64,000 nucleotides of DNA from Lingula anatina. Its lineage: Eukaryota > Animalia > Brachiopoda. Of this stretch, positions 161-27,000 are shown in pieces; the first letter of the stretch is position 1; each line of letters begins with the position of its first letter. A program made the translations under genes and the position numbers. The stretch is from contig CM120646.1 of the NCBI GenBank assembly GCA_051362555.1, forward strand, positions 12,958,001 through 13,022,000. The letters are read 5' to 3'. The notes below the pieces were generated by a model that saw only the letters and a program-made list of their open reading frames with translations, ran no database searches and was not told the DNA's origin.

Positions 161-3100
161 CTTTGTGACGTAACATGTGCACTTTAAGCTGGCTGTTTGT
201 TCTGGCTTTATAATCACACACGTTACATTCATATGGACGCACATCTAAAACAAAAGATATAAAACAACATTATTTTTCCCGTTAAAACCAAGAAAGATAT
301 TATTACTAAAGCCTAGATATTGACACTAGGCACTTTACTTAATACCATGCAAAAAGTTTAATATGCTCAATGCTAAAGATATTATACTGTCATTATACTG
401 TCATATTTAGACAAAGATGTTGCCGTTAGAACTTGGGTCACTGACATCTCACATTTTGCGTAAAAAACATGGGGAAGTAACAGTACTTTTTAATCAATCA
501 AATCTAGGGCATCAAAAGAAACAATTGGGGCTCTTTAGTCTTGGTACTTCAATGTAAACTTTGGGAAGAAAAATAATATTTTCTGTCTCTGTGAGATAAC
601 AGCAGAAAATGCACTAGTCCAAGATAATTTTCAACACAAAGCAACTACAACTCTGCGGACCACAACTCAAGTGCTACTGTCACATGACTGACGGTGCTGC
701 CACCTAGTTACCTTCATGGAAGTCCAAGTGCCTGTTGATGTCTGCTAGAGTCGGGAACTCTCTGCCACAGAAAACGCAGCGGTAAACTGGCACACCTTGA
801 ATTATGATTGGCTGACAGGATTCTTCTCGTCTGCTGGGATCTTTCACTACAGCAAGCCTGAGCAAAAATAAGGCATCAACAAATATAATACAGGTTATGA
901 CATCTATAAAATAATATCTAAGTCTGCAAAATATGAAACTAAATAATAATAAAAAAGAGATCTAAAGTTTTTTGCAGTAACTCCATAAAACTGGGATAAA
1001 ATTATTTAACAAACTAGTAATGTTAGCAGTTTCACAATTATACACGGAAGACTTTAGAAAACTCACCGAGAAGTCGATCTTCTAACATTTCCCAATCCAG
1101 ATGCAAACATGTTTCCACCAAATTGTGATTCAGGCATTCCTGCTATGAGCATGTTTGGGGGACATGAAAAGCTGCTAGACTTGGCTGCCATGGTAATGAC
1201 AGGTGTAGGCGCACCCGTCATGGATGGTGTCATAGATGGGGCCATGGTGGGTGCTGAGGCAAATCGAGATTCTTGTCCTCTGAAGAGATTTGTCTGATTG
1301 TGAGATGCAGGGAATGATTCTCCTTCAATAAATTCTACATCGTCTTGATCCTTGATGTTTATATGTTGTTGGCCTCTGACAACTTGTTGACCCCATGTCT
1401 CTTGTTGACCTTTGAACTCCTGTTGACCTCCAACCTCATTTTCATTTCTGATCACATGTATATCCAAATTCTCTTGTTGATCTCTTGTCCCATATAGAGG
1501 ATTGTTGTCAATGTTAGCATCAGCATTGTTGGCACTGACAGGGGAAGTAAGGAGTGTCTTGGGGCCAGAACCTAGGAGTTTGGTCGGCAGTGCCCCCTTG
1601 CGGCGAGTTCGTGCTGACAGGTGCGACATCATGCTGGTGGGCTGGTTGTTTGGAACTAGAATGCCAGGTGAAGTGAAAACATCACTTTCTTCCTCATCTT
1701 CCTCCTGGTCATCCACAATGTCTGGGTTTCCTGGTCCTAAAACATCCTCGTCTCCGAGTGGCTCGTCAGAGGGCAGCACCACCGTGACATCCTCACCAAC
1801 GCCATCTTCCTGCCGAATTTTCTTGATTTTTGATTGTTGGTCTTCCTCTTTTGTTTCTTCCTCTTTGAAACTTGGGATTTCTTTCTTTCTGTTGATGCTT
1901 CCTGCATTTTTCAGACTGGCAATCTTGTTTTCCAATCTGGATTTGTAAGAAGAGAGAGAACTCCCACCACTGCTGCGTCTATTCAGGCGGTTTCTAAAAA
2001 CTGAGTACTTGTTGGTTGAAAAGAAGGAATGTCTTCTGACTGGCTTCAGAGCAATCAGATCGTCGTGGTTTTTCACATGGTCATGAAAGCGTACAATATG
2101 TTGTCGAAGGTTTCGCATCTCACTGAATCCCTTTCCACATTCACGGCAATAGCATGGTTTAACTCCTGTGTGGATGCGTTCATGCCTACGAAGAGAAAAG
2201 AGACGGAAGAACCCCTTGTTGCAGGTGCGGCACTGATAAAAAGTTGTCCCTTCACCCTCTCTGTTGGAACCCTGGATCCCAGACAACCTCTTCAAGTATG
2301 TCTTCTCACTGGCTGGCCTGGCGTAGTTCCTCAGCATCTTTGGTGTCTCCATTGAGCTCAGCACGCTGACGTTCTGTGAGATCAAATGATCAATTCTCTC
2401 CCTGATCTTGTCTTTCATATCTCCTTCCTCTTCTTCCATTGTGTCAGATCTGGCATCTCCTGCGAGTCTACCTCCGTACTGGGAAATGCCCTCTGCTGAC
2501 ATCTGGTGGCCACTTGAAAAATTGTCAAATTCTGGGTTGTCATGCTTGAAGTGCCACTCCAAGTGGTAGACAAACTGCATACGTGAAGTGAAACTAGCAC
2601 CACAAGCCTGGCAGCGATACAAAGCAGGATCTTGGTCAAAATGCAGTGGAAGATGAATCTGTAACTTCCCAAGGTCTGAGTAGACCTGGCTGCAGAGGTG
2701 ACACTTGTACAAGGCCATTCTCTGCCCCGTTGTGGTGTCGTAACCATCGAGGCGGCTCACAACCATTGTCTCCTCAATAACCTCAAAGTTTTGCTTGCTC
2801 ATGTTGAGGCTCTTGACCTTCTGTGCCTGGCTGTAGCTATCCCAGGACTCCTCATCCTGCAGCATGACCTCTGTATGTTTCTGCATCACTTGACCACTTC
2901 CTATCCTTGCATTGCTGTCCACTGTTGGTCCTTGACTATCATGTTTTTCATCCTGGAAACTTATGTTGTGGAATACAAGACCTTTACGCCCTGGACTTGG
3001 CTTGGTAACGGGAATGAGGTTTTTCTGTGTTGGTGCAGCGTGGTGTTGTTTCTTTCTCCGTCTCCATGGGTTCAGTGCTTTCCCCTCTTGCTGGCTTACA

Positions 3101-6100
3101 TTATAAACATTAGTTTGGTTACTGGCACCATATGACCTGTAAGCCTGGGGATTTCTTAATCGGAGACCTCGAAGCACTGATGGGCCTTGATAGCTCTTGG
3201 CAGGCACTGGCTCAGTCTCCTCTTGCTCTTGACTTGTAGTGGCTCCCTCTTTCTGCAGACTTTTTGGCTGAGTTTCCCCAGTCTGGCTGATGCTATGGTT
3301 GGAATTCTCCCCTTTTTCTTCGATGTCATCCAACATTTGACCTGTAGGAGGCACTCCCATTTGGCTACATTCAGGAGAAGATGAATCCTGAGTAGGAATG
3401 TCCAGTTTTATCAAGGCCTCATTTACAACCACGGCTGATGCATGACCCAAATCTAGCCCACCATTGCCATTCACCAAGACAGAGTCACCTCCCCCGCCCA
3501 TTTCTTCAATCCTCATCTTCACCAACTCTTGTTCTTTTTGTTTGTAGTGTTCTTTAACCTTCAGCCGCAAATAGCGCTCTTCAAGACCCTGACTCAGCTC
3601 GACATCCATGTTGTGGTGAGCTTTCATGTGATATAACATGCTGCCCTTGGCCTTGAATGCCTTTCCACAGACCTGAGGAGATAGATTATTTCATATAAGT
3701 GGAGAAGTGCAATATACTGGGTCACCATACACTATATCAAATATTATAGAACAGATGTATTTTGTTTATGCAATACTTCATCCAGATAATTGCAAATTAA
3801 TAATAATAATAATAATAAAATAAAATAAAATAAATTAAAATATATAAATGAATGAAAAAAATTACAACAACTATAAATATCTATTTTGTTGTTTTACATG
3901 TAAAGATAGACAACTTTAATCATAATGCTTGTCTCCCACTTACTGCACATTTGAAAGGCCTCTCTCCTGTGTGTACCATGAGGTGGCGCTTCAGGTCGCT
4001 TGGCTTGGGACAAACTTTGCCACAAAATGTACACGTGCGGTGGGCCAGGAAGGAGGACTTGCCGTCAAAATGCTGACTGAGTTTGTGCGAGAGACTTTGA
4101 CTATCAGGAGAGATCCATGGCCCATCTTGGGAATCCTCCTGACCAGTCCCACCCATGCTGCCATCTTGTGAGATACCCTGCAAACAATGATGTTATAAAT
4201 GATAGGTTTAACCTTTAATGTATCTAAAATACTGAAAATTCACCAATTTGTATTTGTTCAAAAGCAAACCCAATACATAATCTTTTTAAATAATTCTATT
4301 TATCATGCAATGGTAGATAGAGAATATGACACTATTGTATTTATGAGTGTAAAAGCAGGCCAATACATAAAGAGTGCATTCCCAGAGATTCAGATTGATC
4401 CATTCGGATCGACCCAACTCCCTGGGGGTTCACGCTAAATTGCAGTCAGCCGAGCGCACATGGCAATATTACCCCCTTACAGCTCTTAGTAGGTGGGACA
4501 GACGCTTAAGCCGGCTAAGCTGACAGTAATCTAGTGAGACTCCCCACAGGGATAGATTGATCTAAAATCTGTGGGAATGGGGTCAAAGACATCTAAGTTT
4601 ATGTAAAAGCAAACATTTTACCTCATCATCTTGCTCCAACTGAGATTCTGGCCGAGGGCTGGAGTCAGCTGACATGGGTGTATTCCTGCCACCATGTTGG
4701 AAACGGCCTTGTGGGATAGAAGAACTGTCCCCCGACTCCTGGGACCCACTTTCAGCACTCGCCTCATCCAACTTCACTAACTTAGCACCATGATAAGCAC
4801 CGCTCTGGACAGCGCCAGCACCTTTGAGGTAGAGCGAGGAGGAGAGAAGGCCAGCGCCTGTTGGCCAGGTGCCCTTGATGTTCTCCAGCTGAAGTTTGCG
4901 CTTCCGTGCCTCAGAATATTTCTGTACGATGTTGGTGTTTTGTGACTCCATCCCGTGGTGCATATACTGGTGGTATTGAAGACTGCGTTTGGCCTTGAAA
5001 GCTTTGCTGCACACCTGAATATTATATACACACATAAATGAATAAGTGAGAACACCAGCCCATACACACATATGCACACACATGTACACAAACTTATACA
5101 AACACAAGTATGCAGGTTTATGTATGTACAGTACAGTAAAGGTATGCATTGTACACTTCAGTATATTCAAACAAGTATTTGTAAAATTACATATGAGCAA
5201 AGCTTAAACTAGTGTAAGCCCATTCAAGAACTCACAACACTCAAAACTAAAAATATGCAAATGGATATACACAAAATACTAGTATACAAATAGACACGTG
5301 ACACAGTACCAGGGGGGGGGTACTCACATTACAGGCAAAGGGTCTCTCTCCAGTGTGTTTACGGACATGTCGCTCTAAGTCAGCAGGGCTCTTCTTTACC
5401 ACACCACAGTACATACATGTGCGATCAGTGAGATCTAGTAGACCGGTTTGACTGGAGGGAAACTTGCTGCAATGGAAGTATTCATGCTAAATTCATATAT
5501 GTTTACAAGAAAGTAAGACTGTAAACTATGGAGTTTTAGGTCTTTTTAAGAACATTTTTACTGGAGGACAGTGTTGGTGATGCCACTGATGGCCATTACT
5601 TCAGATACTTATAAATCTGTACAAAAATTAAACTGCAATTACAGAATGTGATTCAGATTGTTACTAAATTTAAAGCTGTCAAATACATGTTCTGTTTTGA
5701 CTTAAAATGCACATTAGCATAGAGAAGAAATGATCACCTAGCACCAAAGGACAAAGACTGTGATTGGTTAGGATCTGCCAGTTCCAGCTTGTTCAACCAA
5801 TCCCCACCACCGGCTGTTCCAAGCAAAGAATCTGAGCCTGGGAAAATGCTCTTCTGGGAAGTTGAACTGGTAGCTGGCACCTCCTGTACACCAGCACTTG
5901 TGGGATCATTGTCCCCCAAGGCATTCAGAACTTTATTCAACACTTGGAAATCACTGTCCTGATCTTCCGGCCACTGGACGTTGTGTGAATTTGATGAGGA
6001 GTGGGTGGTGTCAGTTGCCACAGCTTCTGGTATACTGGTGGACTGGGGGTCTGTTACAGTAACATCTGAGGAAGTTTGACCTAGACTGACCGGCCCTTGG

Positions 6101-6494
6101 GTCAGCAGATCTGTCCCTCCACCTTCTTTGCCATCTTCATCTAAAATTGTAATGTGTAAATGTGTTTATTTCAGCTTTAAAACAAAATGCCTTATATTCA
6201 CAACTGAAAGGTTATAAAACATGTTTTTAAATACCATGTATATCCAGAGTAAAAAATAAATAAAAATAAATGAAATAATTAAATAATTAATAAATGCACA
6301 AAATTAAAAAAATAAAAAATAAAAAAAATAAAGAGAGATCGATATGCTGGAATATAACAACACTTGACACTGGACCTATAGGAGGACCTATAAAATAAAC
6401 AATCTTGTTTTACATGTAACATGCAATTCAACATGTAATTTAATTGGCAGCAGGCAATGTACTTGATCATTCAGGATCATGATGTAATGAAGTG

Positions 6495-6533
<39 letters not shown>

Positions 6534-7392
6534 ATCATCCCTACTAATTGAACTTGGTCAGTGTGTATAAATTCTTGTAGTTCAAAAACTACAAACACGG
6601 CAAAAAAATACCTGAAGAAGCACAAACAAAATATAAATTAAACAAGTATCATAAATAGGTATCGGTAAATAACCGAAAATAAACCATTAAAACAGTCTAA
6701 ATTATTTTACTTTTTACTCAGAAATGATGTGGAGATGAAAACCATTCATGTTTTTAATCCTGTATTCACCCAAAAAGGCGAATAACATTTTAACTTTCTT
6801 GGAAAATAGAAAGAAAAAAGGGAGAAAAAGGACGATCCCAAACCAATCCTCCATTCATCTCATTACTTCCGCCTTAACTTCGACCTCTGACCTTTTATGT
6901 CAAGACTTGCCAAATGCACGTGCAACACAACAACAATCAACAAACCCAATAACATCACTTTATTTCTCCATCAAATTCTCCGATCGCATTTTCAGCGTCC
7001 ACTCTCAAACCCTCCCTTCAGAGCCCCTCATTACTAATCCACTTCCTGTGCACGTGTGTCTCGAGTCACGCGTACGTGAACAAAAGTAAACAGCCTGCAA
7101 GAACGTGCGTCTGCATACGTATTAGCACGCCGCCCGGCGTCGCTGCCAGCCGCCTCAGCGCCAGCAAGGGTTGTTTTTCTAAATTCAACACTGCGGCTTA
7201 ATGTGTGCATCCAGGCACGCTTATGTATTCAACCCGGCTGTCACGCACTCTGCTGATACGTCAGCACATGCGCGTGCGTGATTCATGCATGTTAATTTCA
7301 TCCCCGCCCATACGCGGTCGAAAAGGGGAAAAGATACAATAAATACACTTACTTAAGATGTGTTGAGGCTTCGATTGTTTCCTCCTCGACAT
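161..7392 (-). CDS. Multi-cluster C2H2 zinc-finger transcription factor with N-terminal NuRD-interaction motif; 3' end lies outside the window
   Basis: Exons assembled by hand, all GT-AG with matching phases: 7392-7353 ([13 protein letters not shown]), 6140-5738, 5466-5328 ([18 protein letters not shown]), 5014-4622, 4177-3944 ([24 protein letters not shown]), 3672-1067 (the 858-aa ORF, further fingers), 857-712 (CVFC..RHLDFH), 244-161 ([14 protein letters not shown]). No stop before the window edge. Confidence 0.92.
1067..3672 (-). CDS. Large internal exon 6 (2606 nt) of the zinc-finger gene
   Basis: 858-aa ORF with C2H2 fingers (CHLC, CQAC, CRTC..HTGVKP..CREC); acceptor CAG at 3675-3673, donor GTGAGT at 1066-1061. 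Confidence 0.93.
4372..4584. mobile_element. PIF/Harbinger-like MITE, family A
   Basis: Ends GAGTGCATTCCCA...TGGGAATGGGGTC, 3-bp AAA flanks; internal sequence shared with copies at 9077, 20949, 31180, 36807. Confidence 0.85.
6496..6530. repeat. Poly(A) tract, about 35 nt
   Basis: Uninterrupted A run in intron 1 of the ZNF gene. Confidence 0.9.
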
Positions 7393-7621
7393 CTCCTGCC
7401 CTTTATATCGAAGACCTTGAAGTTAGTTGAGTAAAAACAGCACTTAAAACATGCAAATAAACATCAAAACGCGAGAGCTCGTACACATTCATTAGCACCG
7501 GCGGCCATCTTTGACTTTGCAGTCTGGGTATGCCACATGTGGTACTTGCATGTGTATTTCATCAGTTCCTCGTTAGAAGCCGGTTATCTTCTTTATTGTA
7601 TTCCATAACATATTTTTAAGA
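7393..7621. promoter_or_regulatory. Bidirectional promoter shared by the ZNF gene and DARS1
   Basis: Divergent ATGs at 7392 (-) and 7622 (+) are 229 bp apart; YY1-type motif GCGGCCATCTT at 7501-7511; locally CpG-rich in an otherwise CpG-poor window. Confidence 0.8.
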
Positions 7622-10600
7622 ATGGCCGATACAAATGCAGAAAACGAAGGACCATTAGGGTATGTAGAGCGGTTCTAAAAGTTTTATTAAGTTACAGATA
7701 TGTCCCTTAAAGACCCCGATCTTATGCTGTTGTTATGATGTGTGGCCTACATTGTCAGTGTGAACCGAGGACACGCATTTCCTTTATGAAGTTAATACAT
7801 TGTAGCACGACCTTGGATGTATTGATCATTGAAATGTGTGCGTGCCTCAGCGTGTGACTTCAGACAAACTATAATTGTATCGTCCTTTGTGTCAACTTTA
7901 CTTATAGCTGAAGATGTAACATGTAACATTTAAACGTCTTTTTTTACTGATAGGTTTATAAATGTGAGTGTTAAATTACGCGATTTATGGTATATGCATT
8001 GTAAAAGTTTGAAGTATCACTAACGCATTTTTGCCACGTGCTTATATACATGTAGTCCCAATTTATGGCACTAATAATCATAACTTATACCATGTAATTT
8101 ATTCTTGATGAACACAAGAATATTTTTGAAGTAGATGACAGTAAACAAAAGAGAAGTAAAAATAGAAAACAAAATAACTTCTTTACTTGCCATATTGAAA
8201 GGGATAATAACTCTCTGTTCTGGCCAAAAAATGAATTTTCCTGGAGTAAGCAACAATTTTCCCATACTTACCATTGGTTAATGAATCAATTTTTACATTC
8301 AGAGTTAGTCCCTGTTTGTTTTCTTCTAAAAAGTTTTTTTTTATAATCTCTAGAGATTATAACAGAGTATAGCCATCAGTGGAGGTCACATCTAGTCTAA
8401 AGACAAGCTCAGATATCAGAATAATAGCTATAACTGCTGTTTTTGTGGTAAAACAGAATATATTATATTTCTGAGTTGTTCACAATCTTTTTATTGTGAA
8501 ATATAGACCTCATACGGAGAGTTATTTATCCCTTTAAGGCCTTCCAAGCCAAGATTTCCCCTCAAAACCTCAAGTTTTAAGGATTTCTCCCCACATTTTC
8601 TCCCAACTTATACCAACTTTAATCTATCTTTCTTTTTTTCATACATTTTTGTGAAAAGCAAAAAATGACCACCTTTTTTTTTTTGGGGGGGGGGGGGAGG
8701 AGGTAAACAGAAGAATAGATTAGAGGGTGGGAAGAAATGTGAATGAGGAAAATACCATGGAATGATGGGATACACCAGCCATACTGTGAATTATAATTTC
8801 CACTTTTCAGTCCTGATGGGAAACCTATATCGAAGAAAGCCCTGAAGAAACAACAGAAACAGGCTGAAAAGGCAGCTAAGAAGGAACAGCACAAGCAGGC
8901 TGTAAGTCAAACTTACATTGATCTTGTCAGTTTTCGAAGCATTTGTTTAAATAAAGATAGGTCATACTGGAACAAACTGATATCAGAAAAACTTATGCTA
9001 GTATATTATTGCTGTGCTCTGTCAAGCTTAGAGCGTAGTTTCCTTTAGAACACTGTTCAGATTGACCTTTTACTTGGACTGCATTCCCACAGATTTTAAG
9101 ATCGATCTGTCCCCGTGGGGAGTCTCACTAGGTTGCTGTCAGCTTAGCCAGCTTAAATGTCTGTCCTGCCTACTAAAAGCTGTAAGGGGGTAATTAACTT
9201 CGATGCGAGCTCGACTGACAGCAATTTAGCATGAACCCCCAGGGAGTTAGGTCGATCCAGATGGATCGATCTCAATCTGTGGGAACCCAGTCTAAGATAT
9301 CATATCTTACCTCAAAGCTGATAGTTTTGCCATCAGCAAGAGCCTTCTAAGACAGGTGACTTTACTCGACAATTTTTTTTAATCTTGAGACATTAACATT
9401 ACTTCTACTCCAGGCTGGAGGAGATGGAAATGAAGATGCAGAAAAAGAAGACTTTGCAAAGGACTTTTATGGCAAGTGTCCCATGAACCAGTCCCAGGAG
9501 AGGGTAGAGAGAGACCTCGTCCCTGTGCAGAGCCTCACCCTGGAGCTGGCAGAGAAGAAGAAGGACGAGAAAATATGGTGCAGAGGAAGGTTACACACCA
9601 GTAGAAGTAAAGGTATGGCTTTTGAAACTCTCAGACATGCCTTGTGTTTTGTAGATTTGCAAAAGTTTGTGCAATTTTATCATTGGAAGCTCCATGAAGT
9701 AGCTTTAGAATAGGAATATCAAGGAGATATATGCTATGTCTTATCTGGTTTATATACAGTTAAAATAATTATCATCACTTCAGACTAAAAAACTTTTTAA
9801 AATTTTGGTTGCAAATATGAAATAAACAATCCTTGTCAGTGACATAACATCATGAGCTTTAGCAAGATAAAGCATAGCAGTATTAATATATGATTGTGAA
9901 ATTTTGTGAGACAAGCTTGCAAAATGTGCTTCTCTTGGCCTTAATAATTCCAGTCGTTTTTATATGACTACTTTATATACAAGTAAATTTTTGTAATGTT
10001 TACAGTTTTGATGTTTAAAATGATATTTCAGGAAAGCAATGTTTCTTCGTGTTGCGGCACCAGCATTTCAATGTACAGGCCATTGTTGCTGTTGGGGAGA
10101 GAGTTAGCAAACAGATGGTGAAATTTGTGGCAGCGTAAGTGGAAAAAACTACTTAAATGATTTCTTGGCTTTAAACAATCTTGTGTGGCCTAAGTTTGTG
10201 GTTTAAGACCATATAACATAATTTGTTTGTCAAAAATGATAGTTCCATTAAATGCAGTGGGGTATAAGAGACATATGCTGTTGATTATACATAAGTGGCA
10301 ATCACATCATCAGATATACTTTTGATTACACATTGATTTAAATCTGGATTTCCAATTTGTTGTTAAATTGAAGTTTCATTGTTGAGTTCAATGTTATTAA
10401 AGAAGTTGGAGGTCATTTTTACATTCAAAGCTAGTCCCCGTTTTTTTTTTTTTTTTTTTTCTAAAAAGTTTTTTTTTTTGTTATAATCTCTTACTTGTGA
10501 GTTACTGTGAAAGAATATGGCAGTTACGTCTCATGAAATGTTAAGATTCCCCTCTACCCCTTCTATCAAGATACTCACAGAACCCTTGGAGTTCATTATA

Positions 10601-22870: not shown

Positions 22871-24058
22871 TTAACACGACCACCTTGGCCCATCCAAAGC
22901 CTTCCATATCCTTCTCATTTCCTGCTGACCAATTCGATGGCCTGTGATAAAATTGGCAAAGTTACAAGGAGGTTCATTCCGTCGAAAATATTGAAAACCT
23001 AAATGATGCACGTGTGAGGCGTCCACCTTAGTGGCACATATCCCAGTGATGTACACATCTTCCAACCAAAACATAGGTGTCACTAGTGTTGCCTGATATA
23101 GATCACTTACGAGATCCTGTGAAATAACATACGCTGTTCCTGAGATGTATGTTGGGTAAACTGAGTCAATATACTCCTCCTTTGAAACATACCATTTTGA
23201 GAAATTTTGCCTGTAAGGCATTGCATCTTTAATCACAGAACCCATAATGAACTTGTGAAACTTGGGACCAGAGTCTTTTAAGCTTTTTATCAAGTTTGGA
23301 ATGTGGACGAACATGTCTTCGTCAGTCTTGAGTAGATATTTAGCATGGTTGCAATATGTTGTATACCACTTTAGCACTGCTGTAGTTTTAATAGATAAAT
23401 TTCTGTAGCTGTCAATAAAGTCCTCTTGTATGATATCATGATGCTGTTCACTCTCTTTTCTGACTTGATACTCATGAAAGGACTCATTGGTCCTCCCAAG
23501 CATGAATACAACTTTAGTTTTTAATTCCGGTTGATTGATTGCAGTTCCCCACGTTTGTCGAATTGCTTGACGTTGCCTGTACCTGTGCACAGAGGATAAG
23601 ACTACAACCATTAAGAAAACTTCATCTTTCTTTCCGTCCTTTTTGCAAATATATTCTTCATTGATTAGGTAGGGGTAATCATGAGGATTGACCACTTCTT
23701 GCTGGGATTCAATAACACTGGATAACTTTCTTGTTCGGCTGGAACCAACATTTTTTAATATTCCATTAGAATTTTTCTCCCCTTTGCTGTCCTTTTCTCT
23801 AAAATTACTATTTTTGGAGCCCGAATGAGTAAGCAGTTTTGTCAAGTTTACAGACGACCCAGAATGTCTTGCTATAGCCTCCAAGCCACTGTCTTCTGTC
23901 AAAACTTCTTTCAAGTCATCAGTGCCCTGAATGTAGATTGTTTTCCCGTGCAATGCCTGCAGATGGCGCACATACTCCTGGCTGGTATAGTACAGGTATC
24001 CAAAAAAATGAAATACACAAAAGCCGGTGAGGAAGAGGAGGAGTTTTGATCTCGCCAT
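22871..24058 (-). CDS. Beta-1,3-galactosyltransferase (CAZy GT31, B3GALT1/5-like), 395 aa, single coding exon
   Basis: N-terminal TM (KLLLFLTGFCVFHFFGYLYY), stem, then RQAIRQTWG, DIIQEDFIDSYRNLSIKT, KTDED (DxD), SKWYVS, YPTYISGTAYV, EDVYITG. First in-frame ATG after the TGA is at 24058 (the ORF track starts at a GTG, 24088); splice acceptor TTTTTGCAG just upstream, exon starts 24106. Confidence 0.95.
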   Translation of the reverse strand: MARSKLLLFLTGFCVFHFFGYLYYTSQEYVRHLQALHGKTIYIQGTDDLKEVLTEDSGLEAIARHSGSSVNLTKLLTHSGSKNSNFREKDSKGEKNSNGILKNVGSSRTRKLSSVIESQQEVVNPHDYPYLINEEYICKKDGKKDEVFLMVVVLSSVHRYRQRQAIRQTWGTAINQPELKTKVVFMLGRTNESFHEYQVRKESEQHHDIIQEDFIDSYRNLSIKTTAVLKWYTTYCNHAKYLLKTDEDMFVHIPNLIKSLKDSGPKFHKFIMGSVIKDAMPYRQNFSKWYVSKEEYIDSVYPTYISGTAYVISQDLVSDLYQATLVTPMFWLEDVYITGICATKVDASHVHHLGFQYFRRNEPPCNFANFITGHRIGQQEMRRIWKALDGPRWSC

Positions 24059-27000
24059 AGCGAGGTGAATCCCACTGTCCACAGCCACTCACAGCAAACT
24101 AGACATCTGCAAAAAGATGAAAATTCATTGGTTTGAATTACCAATCAAAGAGAACATTCTACAATAAATAGATTAATTAATTTTAATTAAAATAAAAAAA
24201 ACAATATAATGAATTAAATGAAAAAATAATAAGACTGTTGAATTAAATGAAGGTCTTCATGAATATATTAAGACTGGTATTTTCCTTTTCTCGACTATTA
24301 TCTATTCTTTATCTGGGTTCACATTTACTGTTTACTCAACAGTTTTCAATGATATTATATTATAATATCACTTTTCAGTGGTCTTACATGTATGTTAATC
24401 AATGATAATATCACTGATAATTAATATTCTTTGAGTACCTAAAGAAAATAAACATTTGAGAAATCTTTAAATAACATCGGAACAATGCACATCTCTTAGA
24501 GCCCATCCTGCTTCAGAAACCCTGCGATGTTTTAATTAGAGTTTTGGACAGCGATATCCAGTGATTTATTTCTGTAGTTTGCCTCAGTATTCTCACTGAC
24601 CACTGATCTGGCCTAACCTGATTTTCTGCTTGGAAAGCCTTAATGTGATACTTGTTTTTTTACCCCCTAATAAACATGCCTTCAGCACAAACAAGTATAT
24701 CTTTTTCATCGTGTTACATGTATCCCCCCCCCCCCTCCCCCCCCCTTTGAACAGACTTTTTGTACCAACAACACCAATTTTTCCTCCCTTTTAATCTGGA
24801 ATATTTATTGATTAGCATACATGTAAGGATCACATGAAACAAAAAAACTATCAAAATTGAACCCTTTGTTTTTGATCAAACAGTCAACATTAACGTCATT
24901 GTTTGTTTGACAGCAAAATTATTATGTATGATCATATTCATCAAAGCTCTGTCTAGTTGTATCAGGTCATTGCAAATTCATTTAGCAGCAGGCTAGACAT
25001 GTCATAGATAAAATCAGTTTAACAAAAAATATTTCTGAACGTGTAAAACTATTAAAACAGGTACAATTCATGTGGTGAAGTACATGCATTTTCTACACAG
25101 CAGTCAAATCTACCAAATACTAATAGATATCCATTGTATTATTCATTGTGTTGTGGTTCAATAACACAAATAAAACAAATTCTAAAAGATAACACCCTTT
25201 TTTCTGTCACTGAGTATAACAAATATATGTACATTACTTACAATATACTTTCAAGTTAACAGGACCAGCATTGCAGTTTCATTGCAGTTTCCTTGCAGCA
25301 ATTCTTTTCTGACTTACTAAATCTTGTGACTCACCACTACTTAAAGAATACATGTATGTCTAGTTCGAAAAAAAAATGTTGTAAGAGATCTAGTGCCCTC
25401 CTCCACAAATAAATCTGACTGTTATAATTAGAAACATATTTCCGCACTGATGGATAGCTTATTGCTGCGGCAGTAATAACAAAAGGAATGTGCTGATTCA
25501 AAATGCACAAGGTACATGTATGCAACATAATACATGGTAAATTGGTCCCAGCTAAAATTGAAGTTCATTTCATGAGAAATCTCTCTTTTTGTTTGAGTTT
25601 CTTTGTTGCTCGAATGCCATGTGGTTGTTTCTGCTGAAAAACAATGTCTGTTAAAAAAATATCCAAAGTGATGCATGACAGTCTTGAAGTTCCTCTGTCT
25701 ATTTTAATATACATTTTCATTCTAGATTCTACATAATTCATGAAAATTGAAAATTATTGGAAACAATCCTTATAATTGAGTTCCTGAGAAGAATAATCTG
25801 GAAATTGCTCTGGTTCAATCATTACTGACAGAAAAAGATCACTAATATCCTCCAACTCACTCGAATACAGTATTATTTTCCAGAAAACCAGAGTAAAACT
25901 TTCAGAAAATCTACAAACCACCCATCTATTTAAAAAAAATATATATTCCTATGAGAAAATACCACAAAACCAACAGTGTCACAGACAATTAAGCAGTGCT
26001 AATGAGTCACACCCTCCTAAATGGAGTAACGGTTAGATATATAGCTGTAACACATGTAACAGGCACTGATATTGCGGGCAGCGGTTCTGGGGCTTTAGCA
26101 ACCTTTTATTAGTCACCTGTGGTGAGAACAAGGCAGTATGGTGGGTGTGATACGCGGATGACCGAGGAAGAATGTGAGAAAGCGTTGAGGCCAACAAGTT
26201 TTTGGAAAAAGAAACCAAAATAATCAAATTCCTCTGACTGTTTGCATTCATTTTTCCCTTGTTGAATAAAGAATTATAGGTTTTTTAATGCTTTTTTTCC
26301 AATAAAACTGTCAACAGTTCTGCAAGTAGAAGTGCAATGAGTAAAGAAATACTGCATCAATTTCTTAGCAACATATACTATGTTGTCATTCTTTTCTTCA
26401 GCATTAGAAAAAAGATGTTAATTTAAAATTGTGAAAAAGTTTGGTCATGCTAAATCCTTACTTGTGCATCAGTCTTATCCCTTGTGCCCTTGTTTAATAC
26501 AGCATATATGAAAGAAATTATGCTGGAGCCTTAAATGGACACAAGCGAGATAAAAGGTACCAGGTTTTATCATGTGATACCTGAGTGAGCAGGAAGATAC
26601 CAACGGATACCACCCACAAAGCGAGAAAAAATACACAAAACATAGAGGAGATGGGATAACCTGCTTTTACCTTGTACTACTCAGATCTTGTGTCTCCATG
26701 TGATAGGGTCCTATATCAACAGTTTCAACTCATCTTCCCATTTTACTCACAATCTAATAACATTCAAAAAAACATTTATCAAGAAAAAAACTCCCTCTGT
26801 TTACCATACCTAGAAAGTTAGACATGTGTATAGTATTTGCTGGGGTTAGGTATAATTTGACAACTGTCCGTAGTATAAACAATTTACCATGGCAAATCAG
26901 CAGAGCTATTGGAGTCAGTGAAGATGATGTACATTTGTTTGACATAAAATGAAGTCTCAAGTTGTTATAAAAACAAACAGAGGTCGTTATCTTTCAGTAA

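What the first reader, a model, noticed from the sequence alone, without database searches (positions are those of the whole stretch)
7353..7392. NuRD-recruiting N-terminal peptide on a zinc-finger gene that does not look like SALL, BCL11 or FOG
A 40-nt first coding exon missed by the ORF track encodes [13 protein letters not shown], matching the MSRRKQxxP motif by which SALL, BCL11, FOG/ZFPM and ZNF423/521 bind RBBP4/7. The fingers lack the SAL box (FT/STKGNLK) and CCHC FOG fingers; KPSDLKRH is more ZNF236-like. Candidate uncharacterised invertebrate NuRD-recruiting repressor.
Basis: partly seen in the sequence, partly recalled or inferred. Interest (0 to 1): 0.7.

Follow-up and report, generated by a model that had tools for sequence, protein, structure and literature searches.

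The report
Unnamed zinc-finger family, two NuRD motifs
A tiny first exon gives a lamp-shell zinc-finger protein the short tag that known repressors use to grab the NuRD gene-silencing complex; the gene belongs to an unnamed family found in molluscs, annelids, chelicerates and crustaceans, and it carries a second, internal tag of the same type, so it likely silences genes by binding NuRD at one or both tags.

Summary
Bases 7392-7353 (minus strand) encode [13 protein letters not shown] before a GT donor and splice in phase into an open 8-exon model. The region is transcribed. RefSeq already holds this start (Lingula anatina 'ZNF236-like'), so the exon is annotated, not missed. The gene belongs to a 12-finger orthogroup of 53 sequence clusters from a brachiopod, an annelid, molluscs, mites, spiders and decapods. 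Its finger clusters are not those of SALL, BCL11A, ZNF423 or ZNF236, and a FOG-type signature is absent. ZNF827 and RREB1 could not be compared by sequence. New here: a second, internal RBBP4-type motif (Lingula [12 protein letters not shown], window 1611-1576) sits in a disordered linker in 35 of 52 orthologues, against about 1 expected from shuffles. It matches the published ZNF512B and IKZF1 motifs position by position. Of 53 clusters, 28 carry the N-terminal motif, 35 the internal one, 16 both and 47 at least one. Best reading: a NuRD-recruiting repressor with two RBBP4 docking peptides. Binding, DNA targets and repression are inferred from motifs only, and no read across the exon 1/2 junction was seen.

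The parts
7353..7392 (-). Coding part of exon 1: [14 protein letters not shown]-terminal NuRD-interaction motif (RRKQxxP); phase-1 GT donor
   Evidence: RefSeq start; RNA depth
7393..7537 (-). 5' leader of exon 1 (upper end approximate); upstream in-frame stop; upstream ATGs
6946..6955 (-). Candidate alternative first coding exon (MLL + phase 1) matching RefSeq isoform X2, which lacks the N-terminal motif
   Evidence: no reads in bin 6935-7001 in 4 of 4 runs
5738..6140 (-). Exon 2, acidic/Ser-Thr-rich region
5328..5466 (-). Exon 3, zinc finger 1 and start of finger 2
4622..5014 (-). Exon 4, rest of finger 2
3944..4177 (-). Exon 5, finger 3 (KPSDLKRH) and start of finger 4
1067..3672 (-). Exon 6: rest of finger 4 plus conserved helix, fingers 5-8, long linker holding the internal motif
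1765..1794 (-). Conserved [10 protein letters not shown] block, 63 residues before the internal motif; SUMO-interaction-like (recalled pattern, untested)
   Evidence: 29 of 53 clusters; coordinates read
1576..1611 (-). Internal RBBP4-type motif [12 protein letters not shown] (RKxxxPxK), model aa 1091-1102
712..857 (-). Exon 7, finger 9
161..244 (-). Exon 8, finger 10; fingers 11-12 lie beyond the window edge

Best explanation
The gene encodes a 12-finger C2H2 protein of an unnamed protostome family whose first exon supplies an RRKQxxP peptide and whose last long linker carries a second RKxxxPxK peptide; each peptide likely docks in the acidic pocket of RBBP4/7, so the protein would bring NuRD to the DNA its fingers likely bind and would repress genes there. 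Shown: exon, reading frame, transcription of exon 1, both motifs, their conservation, and separation from SALL, BCL11A, ZNF423 and ZNF236 fingers. Inferred: the exon 1/2 splice (from RefSeq models and orthologues), RBBP4 binding of each peptide, DNA binding and repression. More speculative: the two peptides engage two RBBP copies of one NuRD, or the internal one keeps NuRD binding in isoforms that skip exon 1.
For: N-terminal motif in 28 of 53 clusters, from brachiopod to decapod, including unnamed Logan ORFs of 988-1283 aa on contigs of 4.2-5.6 kb that look like spliced transcripts (inference). Residues 2-11 match the BCL11A peptide at 9 of 10 places and residues 1-12 match FOG-1 at 9 of 12 (peptides). 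19 of 23 human RRKQxxP proteins have NuRD-interaction evidence. Internal motif in 35 of 52 homologous linkers against 1.07 expected from shuffles. Two positions not used in the pattern also fit ZNF512B: K/R at -2 in 25 of 27 matches (K419 fills the RBBP4 shelf) and L/I/F at +9 in 23 of 27 (F430). Bivalve KRKSSQPVKL resembles IKZF1 KRKSSMPQKF; spider RKGRPFK resembles PHF6 RKGRPRK. Both motifs fall in segments with pLDDT under 50 in the Haliotis model. Orthology: single-domain scores of 161-253 bits for members against at most 73 for all other proteins held; leave-out profiles; shared intron positions in fetched loci; finger-pair clade 100/99.
Against: No binding, DNA-target or repression data. 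Only 33 of 156 human RKxxxPxK proteins have NuRD evidence, so the internal pattern alone is weak. 25 of 53 clusters show no N-terminal motif and 18 no internal one; 6 show neither. Orthologues are related by descent, so 35 of 52 is not 35 independent events. No junction read was seen and 1 of 4 runs had no depth on exon 1. ESM Atlas ranks RREB1 and ZNF827 clusters first for the whole Haliotis protein and a BCL11A-named fragment cluster first for the C-terminal fingers. Fingers 1-4 of mite and prawn score only 17-64 bits, overlapping the controls. The tree has 52 columns and 17 of 50 inner branches open.
Confidence: 0.7

Rival explanations
1. Only the N-terminal peptide binds RBBP4. The internal basic stretch is a nuclear localisation signal or some other conserved basic patch.
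For: KSRRK is a basic cluster of the NLS type (own knowledge). Only 21% of human RKxxxPxK proteins have NuRD evidence. Cephalopods keep KSRRKASL but lack the proline.
Against: In an alignment of 43 sequences made without the pattern, the proline column is 70-79% conserved and the last basic column 60-69%, inside poorly conserved flanks. The -2 and +9 positions match ZNF512B contacts. Spiders, mites and several snails show only the internal motif.
Confidence: 0.2
2. The family is the diverged protostome orthologue of a named vertebrate gene, most likely ZNF827 (N-terminal RRK motif) or else RREB1 or BCL11/ZNF296, so it is not a new family.
For: ESM Atlas feature hits: RREB1-like rank 1, ZNF827 ranks 2, 3 and 7, all 0.97; BCL11A-named cluster rank 1 for fingers 9-12. 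No deuterostome orthologue was found, which a diverged one would explain.
Against: ZNF827 has nine fingers arranged 3+6; this family has twelve arranged 2-2-2-2-4. BCL11A fingers score 56-57 bits, below ZBTB7A (60-61) and far below members. All ten listed Atlas rows score 0.96-0.97, Pegasus and ZNF516 included, so rank carries little.
Confidence: 0.2
3. The protein binds RBBP4/NuRD but does not act as a promoter repressor; for example it works in DNA repair or on single-stranded DNA as ZNF827 does, or docks another RBBP4 complex.
For: ZNF827 uses C2H2 clusters to bind ssDNA and acts in ATR signalling. The BCL11B motif also affects PRC2 interaction. Fingers 9-12 have non-canonical linkers and are the most conserved part.
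Against: Finger pairs 1-2, 3-4 and 7-8 have TGE/VKP-type linkers typical of DNA-binding pairs (own knowledge). PLDLS CtBP-type motifs (pattern recalled) occur in 8 of 8 decapod clusters, which fits a corepressor platform.
Confidence: 0.1

Closest known systems
FOG-1/ZFPM1, BCL11A/B, SALL1-4, ZNF423/521, ZNF827 (N-terminal RRKQxxP proteins)
   Same: N-terminal RRKQxxP in a short first exon, disordered N-terminus, spaced C2H2 clusters. The motif is already reported in invertebrate Sall and ZNF423 orthologues.
   Different: Finger number, layout and sequence differ; no SAL box; an additional internal motif. No direct comparison with FOG or ZNF827 sequences was possible.
ZNF512B, IKZF1 and PHF6 (internal RBBP4 motif RK(x)xxPxK/R)
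   Same: Same spacing, and the same -2 basic and +9 hydrophobic residues as ZNF512B; near match to IKZF1 KRKSSMPQKF and, in spiders, to the PHF6 peptide.
   Different: In the passages read these proteins are described with one motif each; this family often has both an N-terminal and an internal one. Binding is untested here.
ZNF236
   Same: Paired fingers with a KPSDL-type helix; source of the automatic name on many members.
   Different: ZNF236 has 26-30 fingers, about 1800 aa, no RRKQxxP, and its own protostome orthologue in an ant.

Membership tests
N-terminal NuRD-motif proteins (functional class) | RRKQxxP at the N-terminus | tested here: met
   Residues 3-9; upstream in-frame stop; 28 of 53 clusters
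N-terminal NuRD-motif proteins (functional class) | Direct binding to RBBP4/7 | not testable with these tools
Internal NIM proteins (ZNF512B, IKZF1, PHF6 type) | RK(x)xxPxK/R in a disordered internal region | tested here: met
   35 of 52 linkers vs 1.07 expected; pLDDT under 50 in the Haliotis model
Internal NIM proteins (ZNF512B, IKZF1, PHF6 type) | Motif-dependent RBBP4 binding | not testable with these tools
   Needs peptide binding or co-IP
SALL/Spalt | SAL box FTTKGNLK in the second finger of each pair (PMC5892016) | tested here: not met
   0 of 53; control Spalt has 2; Spalt pairs group apart in the tree
SALL/Spalt | N-terminal C2HC finger ZF1 (PMC5892016) | tested here: not met
   No finger pattern before residue 165
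BCL11 | C-terminal finger triplet homologous to BCL11A ZF4-6 | tested here: not met
   56-57 bits, within the generic range, vs 161-253 for members; Atlas top hit is a BCL11A-named cluster, a lead for remote kinship only
FOG/ZFPM | Several CCHC GATA-binding fingers ending HxxYYC (pattern recalled) | tested here: not met
   0 of 53; one terminal C2HC finger without that ending in 30 of 53, C2H2 in 19, 3 unclear, 1 missing
ZNF423/ZNF521/Oaz | 21-30 fingers homologous to ZNF423 clusters (bioRxiv 2020.03.09.984518) | tested here: not met
   12 fingers; scorpion ZNF423-like scores 31-42 bits with family profiles; the preprint lists a separate Lingula ZNF423
ZNF236 | About 30 fingers, collinear similarity to vertebrate ZNF236 | tested here: not met
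   81 bits vs 585 for the ant orthologue
ZNF827 | Nine fingers in a 3+6 layout (PMC10933417) | tested here: not met
   Twelve fingers, 2-2-2-2-4
ZNF827 | Finger-by-finger orthology | not tested
RREB1/Hindsight | Finger-by-finger orthology | not tested
   No RREB1 sequence fetched; Atlas rank 1; two bivalve members carry the automatic name

The most novel reading that the evidence does not exclude
An ancient protostome transcription-factor family, apparently absent from vertebrates and flies and therefore never studied, that recruits NuRD through two separate RBBP4-binding peptides, one N-terminal and one internal. Different lineages kept one, the other or both (decapods and venerid-type clams the N-terminal one plus CtBP-type motifs; spiders, mites and heterobranch snails the internal one), and alternative first exons switch between one and two docking sites.
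Probability: 0.35. Interest if true: 0.68.

Novelty: new member of a known kind. Interest (0 to 1): 0.48.

Why it matters
The list of zinc-finger families that use the RRKQxxP peptide comes from human proteins and their orthologues. This adds a family conserved from brachiopods to shrimp that databases scatter under wrong names (ZNF236-like, sal-like, RREB1-like, EVI1-like, ZNF208-like). If both peptides bind, it is a natural test of whether one factor can occupy two of NuRD's four RBBP subunits, and of whether N-terminal and internal motifs can replace each other in evolution. Two 15-residue peptides and RBBP4 suffice for the first test.

Tried and rejected
No whole genome is held for this window, so Lingula's own SALL, BCL11, FOG and ZNF827-like genes could not be listed. 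No RNA holder was listed by the index; nine same-species runs were offered and four laid. The junction could not be viewed because only the exon 1 region was laid. First exon-border guesses were out of frame and were fixed. Profile searches for distant orthologues were crowded out by many-finger proteins: one search listed 120 of 396 hits and one search listed 150 of 125,771, so absence from insects, nematodes and deuterostomes is NOT established. None of the 131 new proteins exceeded 73 bits per domain. The metagenome scan gave 65 loci; 12 were inspected by alignment, and L065 is an unrelated many-finger gene. No RRKQxxP was found on the gene strand of any of the 65. Pfam gave only generic C2H2 families above cut-off. 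PDB sequence and fold searches gave only generic finger proteins. A complex with RBBP4 was not predicted: no RBBP4 sequence was on hand. A recalled idea that FOG2, ZNF521 and TSHZ also have 40-nt first coding exons found no support in one paper search and is not used. Three look-ups of earlier scan notes returned nothing. Ten paper searches listed no paper on this family; subscription journals are not covered.

Full report
Observation. On the minus strand, 7392-7353 reads ATG TCG AGG AGG AAA CAA TCG AAG CCT CAA CAC ATC TTA A and is followed by GTAAGT. It is the only such motif in the six frames of the window; about 6e-5 would be expected by chance. An in-frame stop lies upstream, so this ATG is the first in its frame within the exon. 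With borders 7392-7353, 6140-5738, 5466-5328, 5014-4622, 4177-3944, 3672-1067, 857-712 and 244-161 every intron is GT-AG, the frame is open for 1348 residues and ten C2H2 fingers appear; the gene runs off the window.

Support for the exon. The model is 99.1% and 99.3% identical to RefSeq XP_013411899 and XP_013410189 of Lingula anatina, automatically named ZNF236-like and ZNF236; both begin [17 protein letters not shown], the same junction. These are automated models, and I did not see their evidence. Reads laid on 6600-8600 cover bins 7337-7470 in 3 of 4 runs and nothing in 6600-7336 in 4 of 4; in the two stranded runs with depth they lie opposite to the neighbouring + strand gene. Depth is low (0.2-6.6) and no junction read was seen. 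Two further RefSeq isoforms lack the motif: X2 starts from a short alternative exon that fits 6955-6946 and had no reads, and X3 starts at an internal methionine.

The family. A search with residues 1270-1410 gave 53 clusters among 75 candidates: Lingula, the annelid Owenia, bivalves, gastropods, cephalopods, mites, spiders, decapods and unnamed records; a chiton member came. A profile of fingers 9-12 scores members at 161-253 bits per domain (eight of them built the profile) and every other protein held at 73 or less. Profiles built without Lingula, Owenia, a mite, a spider and a prawn recover these five at 57-88 bits (fingers 5-6), 79-85 (fingers 7-8) and 198-234 (fingers 9-12), against 29-37, 32-55 and 37-63 for nine controls including Spalt, ZNF423-like and ZNF236. 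For fingers 1-4 the mite and prawn scores (17-64) overlap the controls. Intron positions after finger 9 and finger 10 are shared with five or six inspected metagenome loci of annelid-, mollusc- and mite-like sequence. In a tree of 57 finger pairs the family's 9-10 pairs form a clade at 100/99 and the 7-8 pairs at 94/83, and none nests among the Spalt pairs; the alignment has only 52 columns. An AlphaFold model of the Haliotis orthologue shows folded finger clusters, a long helix after finger 4, hairpins before fingers 5 and 9, and disorder elsewhere (mean pLDDT 54.7). No insect, nematode or deuterostome member was listed, but the wider searches were crowded by many-finger proteins, so the range is a lower bound.

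The N-terminal motif. [RK]RKQxxP occurs near the start in 28 of 53 clusters when cluster members are included (members were read for 23 of the 53). It spans Lingula, Owenia, gastropods, bivalves, a cephalopod cluster and decapods. Lingula residues 2-11 match the BCL11A peptide at 9 of 10 places and residues 1-12 match FOG-1 at 9 of 12. In human, 19 of 23 RRKQxxP proteins have NuRD evidence. Short first exons of this kind are often missing from gene models: 67 of 165 vertebrate ZNF423 models lacked them, so some of the 25 absences may be annotation gaps. The spider models mostly share one alternative start, which suggests a real loss (inference).

A second motif. In the linker between fingers 8 and 9 Lingula has [12 protein letters not shown] (window 1611-1576). 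RKx(2,3)Px[KR] occurs in this linker in 35 of 52 orthologues (one lacked the anchor) against 1.07 expected from shuffles, and in 5 of 216 non-family finger proteins with the stricter pattern, many of them redundant ZNF236 copies. It usually lies 58-69 residues after a conserved TVVxP block. Against ZNF512B K419-F430, whose R422, K423, P427 and K429 are essential and whose K419 fills the RBBP4 shelf, the two positions outside my pattern also agree: basic at -2 in 25 of 27 and L/I/F at +9 in 23 of 27. Bivalve KRKSSQPVKL recalls IKZF1 KRKSSMPQKF; the spider form RKGRPFK recalls PHF6. Sixteen clusters show both motifs and 47 at least one; decapods and several clams show only the N-terminal one, and spiders, mites and several snails only the internal one. 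PLDLS, a CtBP-type motif (recalled), is in 8 of 8 decapod clusters and absent from Lingula.

Mechanism. Established for FOG-1, BCL11 and ZNF512B: the basic residues enter the acidic pocket of RBBP4 and bring in NuRD. Inferred here: the finger pairs bind DNA, the N-terminal peptide binds RBBP4/7 (about 0.9), the internal peptide does too (about 0.65), and NuRD deacetylates and closes the target (about 0.75). NuRD has an MTA:HDAC:RBBP ratio of 2:2:4 (abstract start), so two peptides could bind one complex; alternatively the internal motif serves isoforms without exon 1. Neither is tested.

Comparison. It works like FOG/SALL/BCL11/ZNF827 and, through the second motif, like ZNF512B/IKZF1. It fails the tests for membership of SALL, BCL11, FOG, ZNF423 and ZNF236. 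ZNF827 differs in finger layout, but neither ZNF827 nor RREB1 was compared by sequence, and both are top Atlas hits. The motif in invertebrates is not new; the family and the pairing of two motifs were not found in ten paper searches.

What I saw of each paper. PMC11602157: passages and section 35. bioRxiv 2025.06.23.660971: passages and section 5; its Table 1 is an image and its supplements are closed, so the list of 23 human proteins was not seen, and it may show human proteins with both motifs. PMC7617475, PMC5892016, bioRxiv 2020.03.09.984518, bioRxiv 303537, PMC10933417, PMC6644156 and PMC8908386: passages only. PMC7535936: passages, and four supplement files searched with no hit.

Verdict. 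Real and correctly read; a new member family of a known kind, with a possibly new two-motif design. Interest 0.48.

Noticed in passing
window 7532-7659 (+) and on to about 12900: A class II tRNA synthetase gene (PF00152; aspartyl type by my reading) lies head-to-head with the zinc-finger gene. Read 5' ends of the two genes nearly abut around 7530, leaving almost no spacer; a YY1-like site (consensus recalled) lies at 7512-7500 on the minus strand.
   Followed up: partly
window 7393-7538 (-): Six upstream ATGs with short ORFs of 2-29 codons in or at the edge of the 5' leader; possible translational control.
   Followed up: no
window 8140-8540: A repeated element: many reads at 90-95% identity with unlike loose ends on both strands in 4 of 4 runs.
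   Followed up: no
window 22871-24088 (-): Single long ORF of a galactosyltransferase (PF01762, 184.7 bits).
   Followed up: partly
P0001 and P0027: RefSeq holds two near-identical copies of the gene on different scaffolds, each about 99% identical to the window model; probably haplotypes.
   Followed up: no
beyond window start; P0001 finger 12: The last finger is C2HC in most lophotrochozoan members and C2H2 in arthropod members.
   Followed up: partly
model aa 165-215 and 374-424: Finger pairs 1-2 and 3-4 group together in the tree, suggesting an old internal duplication.
   Followed up: partly
L023, L033, L052: Annelid-like loci that show no match to fingers 7-8 and no full internal motif; a reduced form of the gene.
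   Followed up: no
P0201, P0378: An uncharacterised 1201-aa ray zinc-finger protein also begins with an RRKQxxP motif; unrelated to this family by finger score.
   Followed up: no
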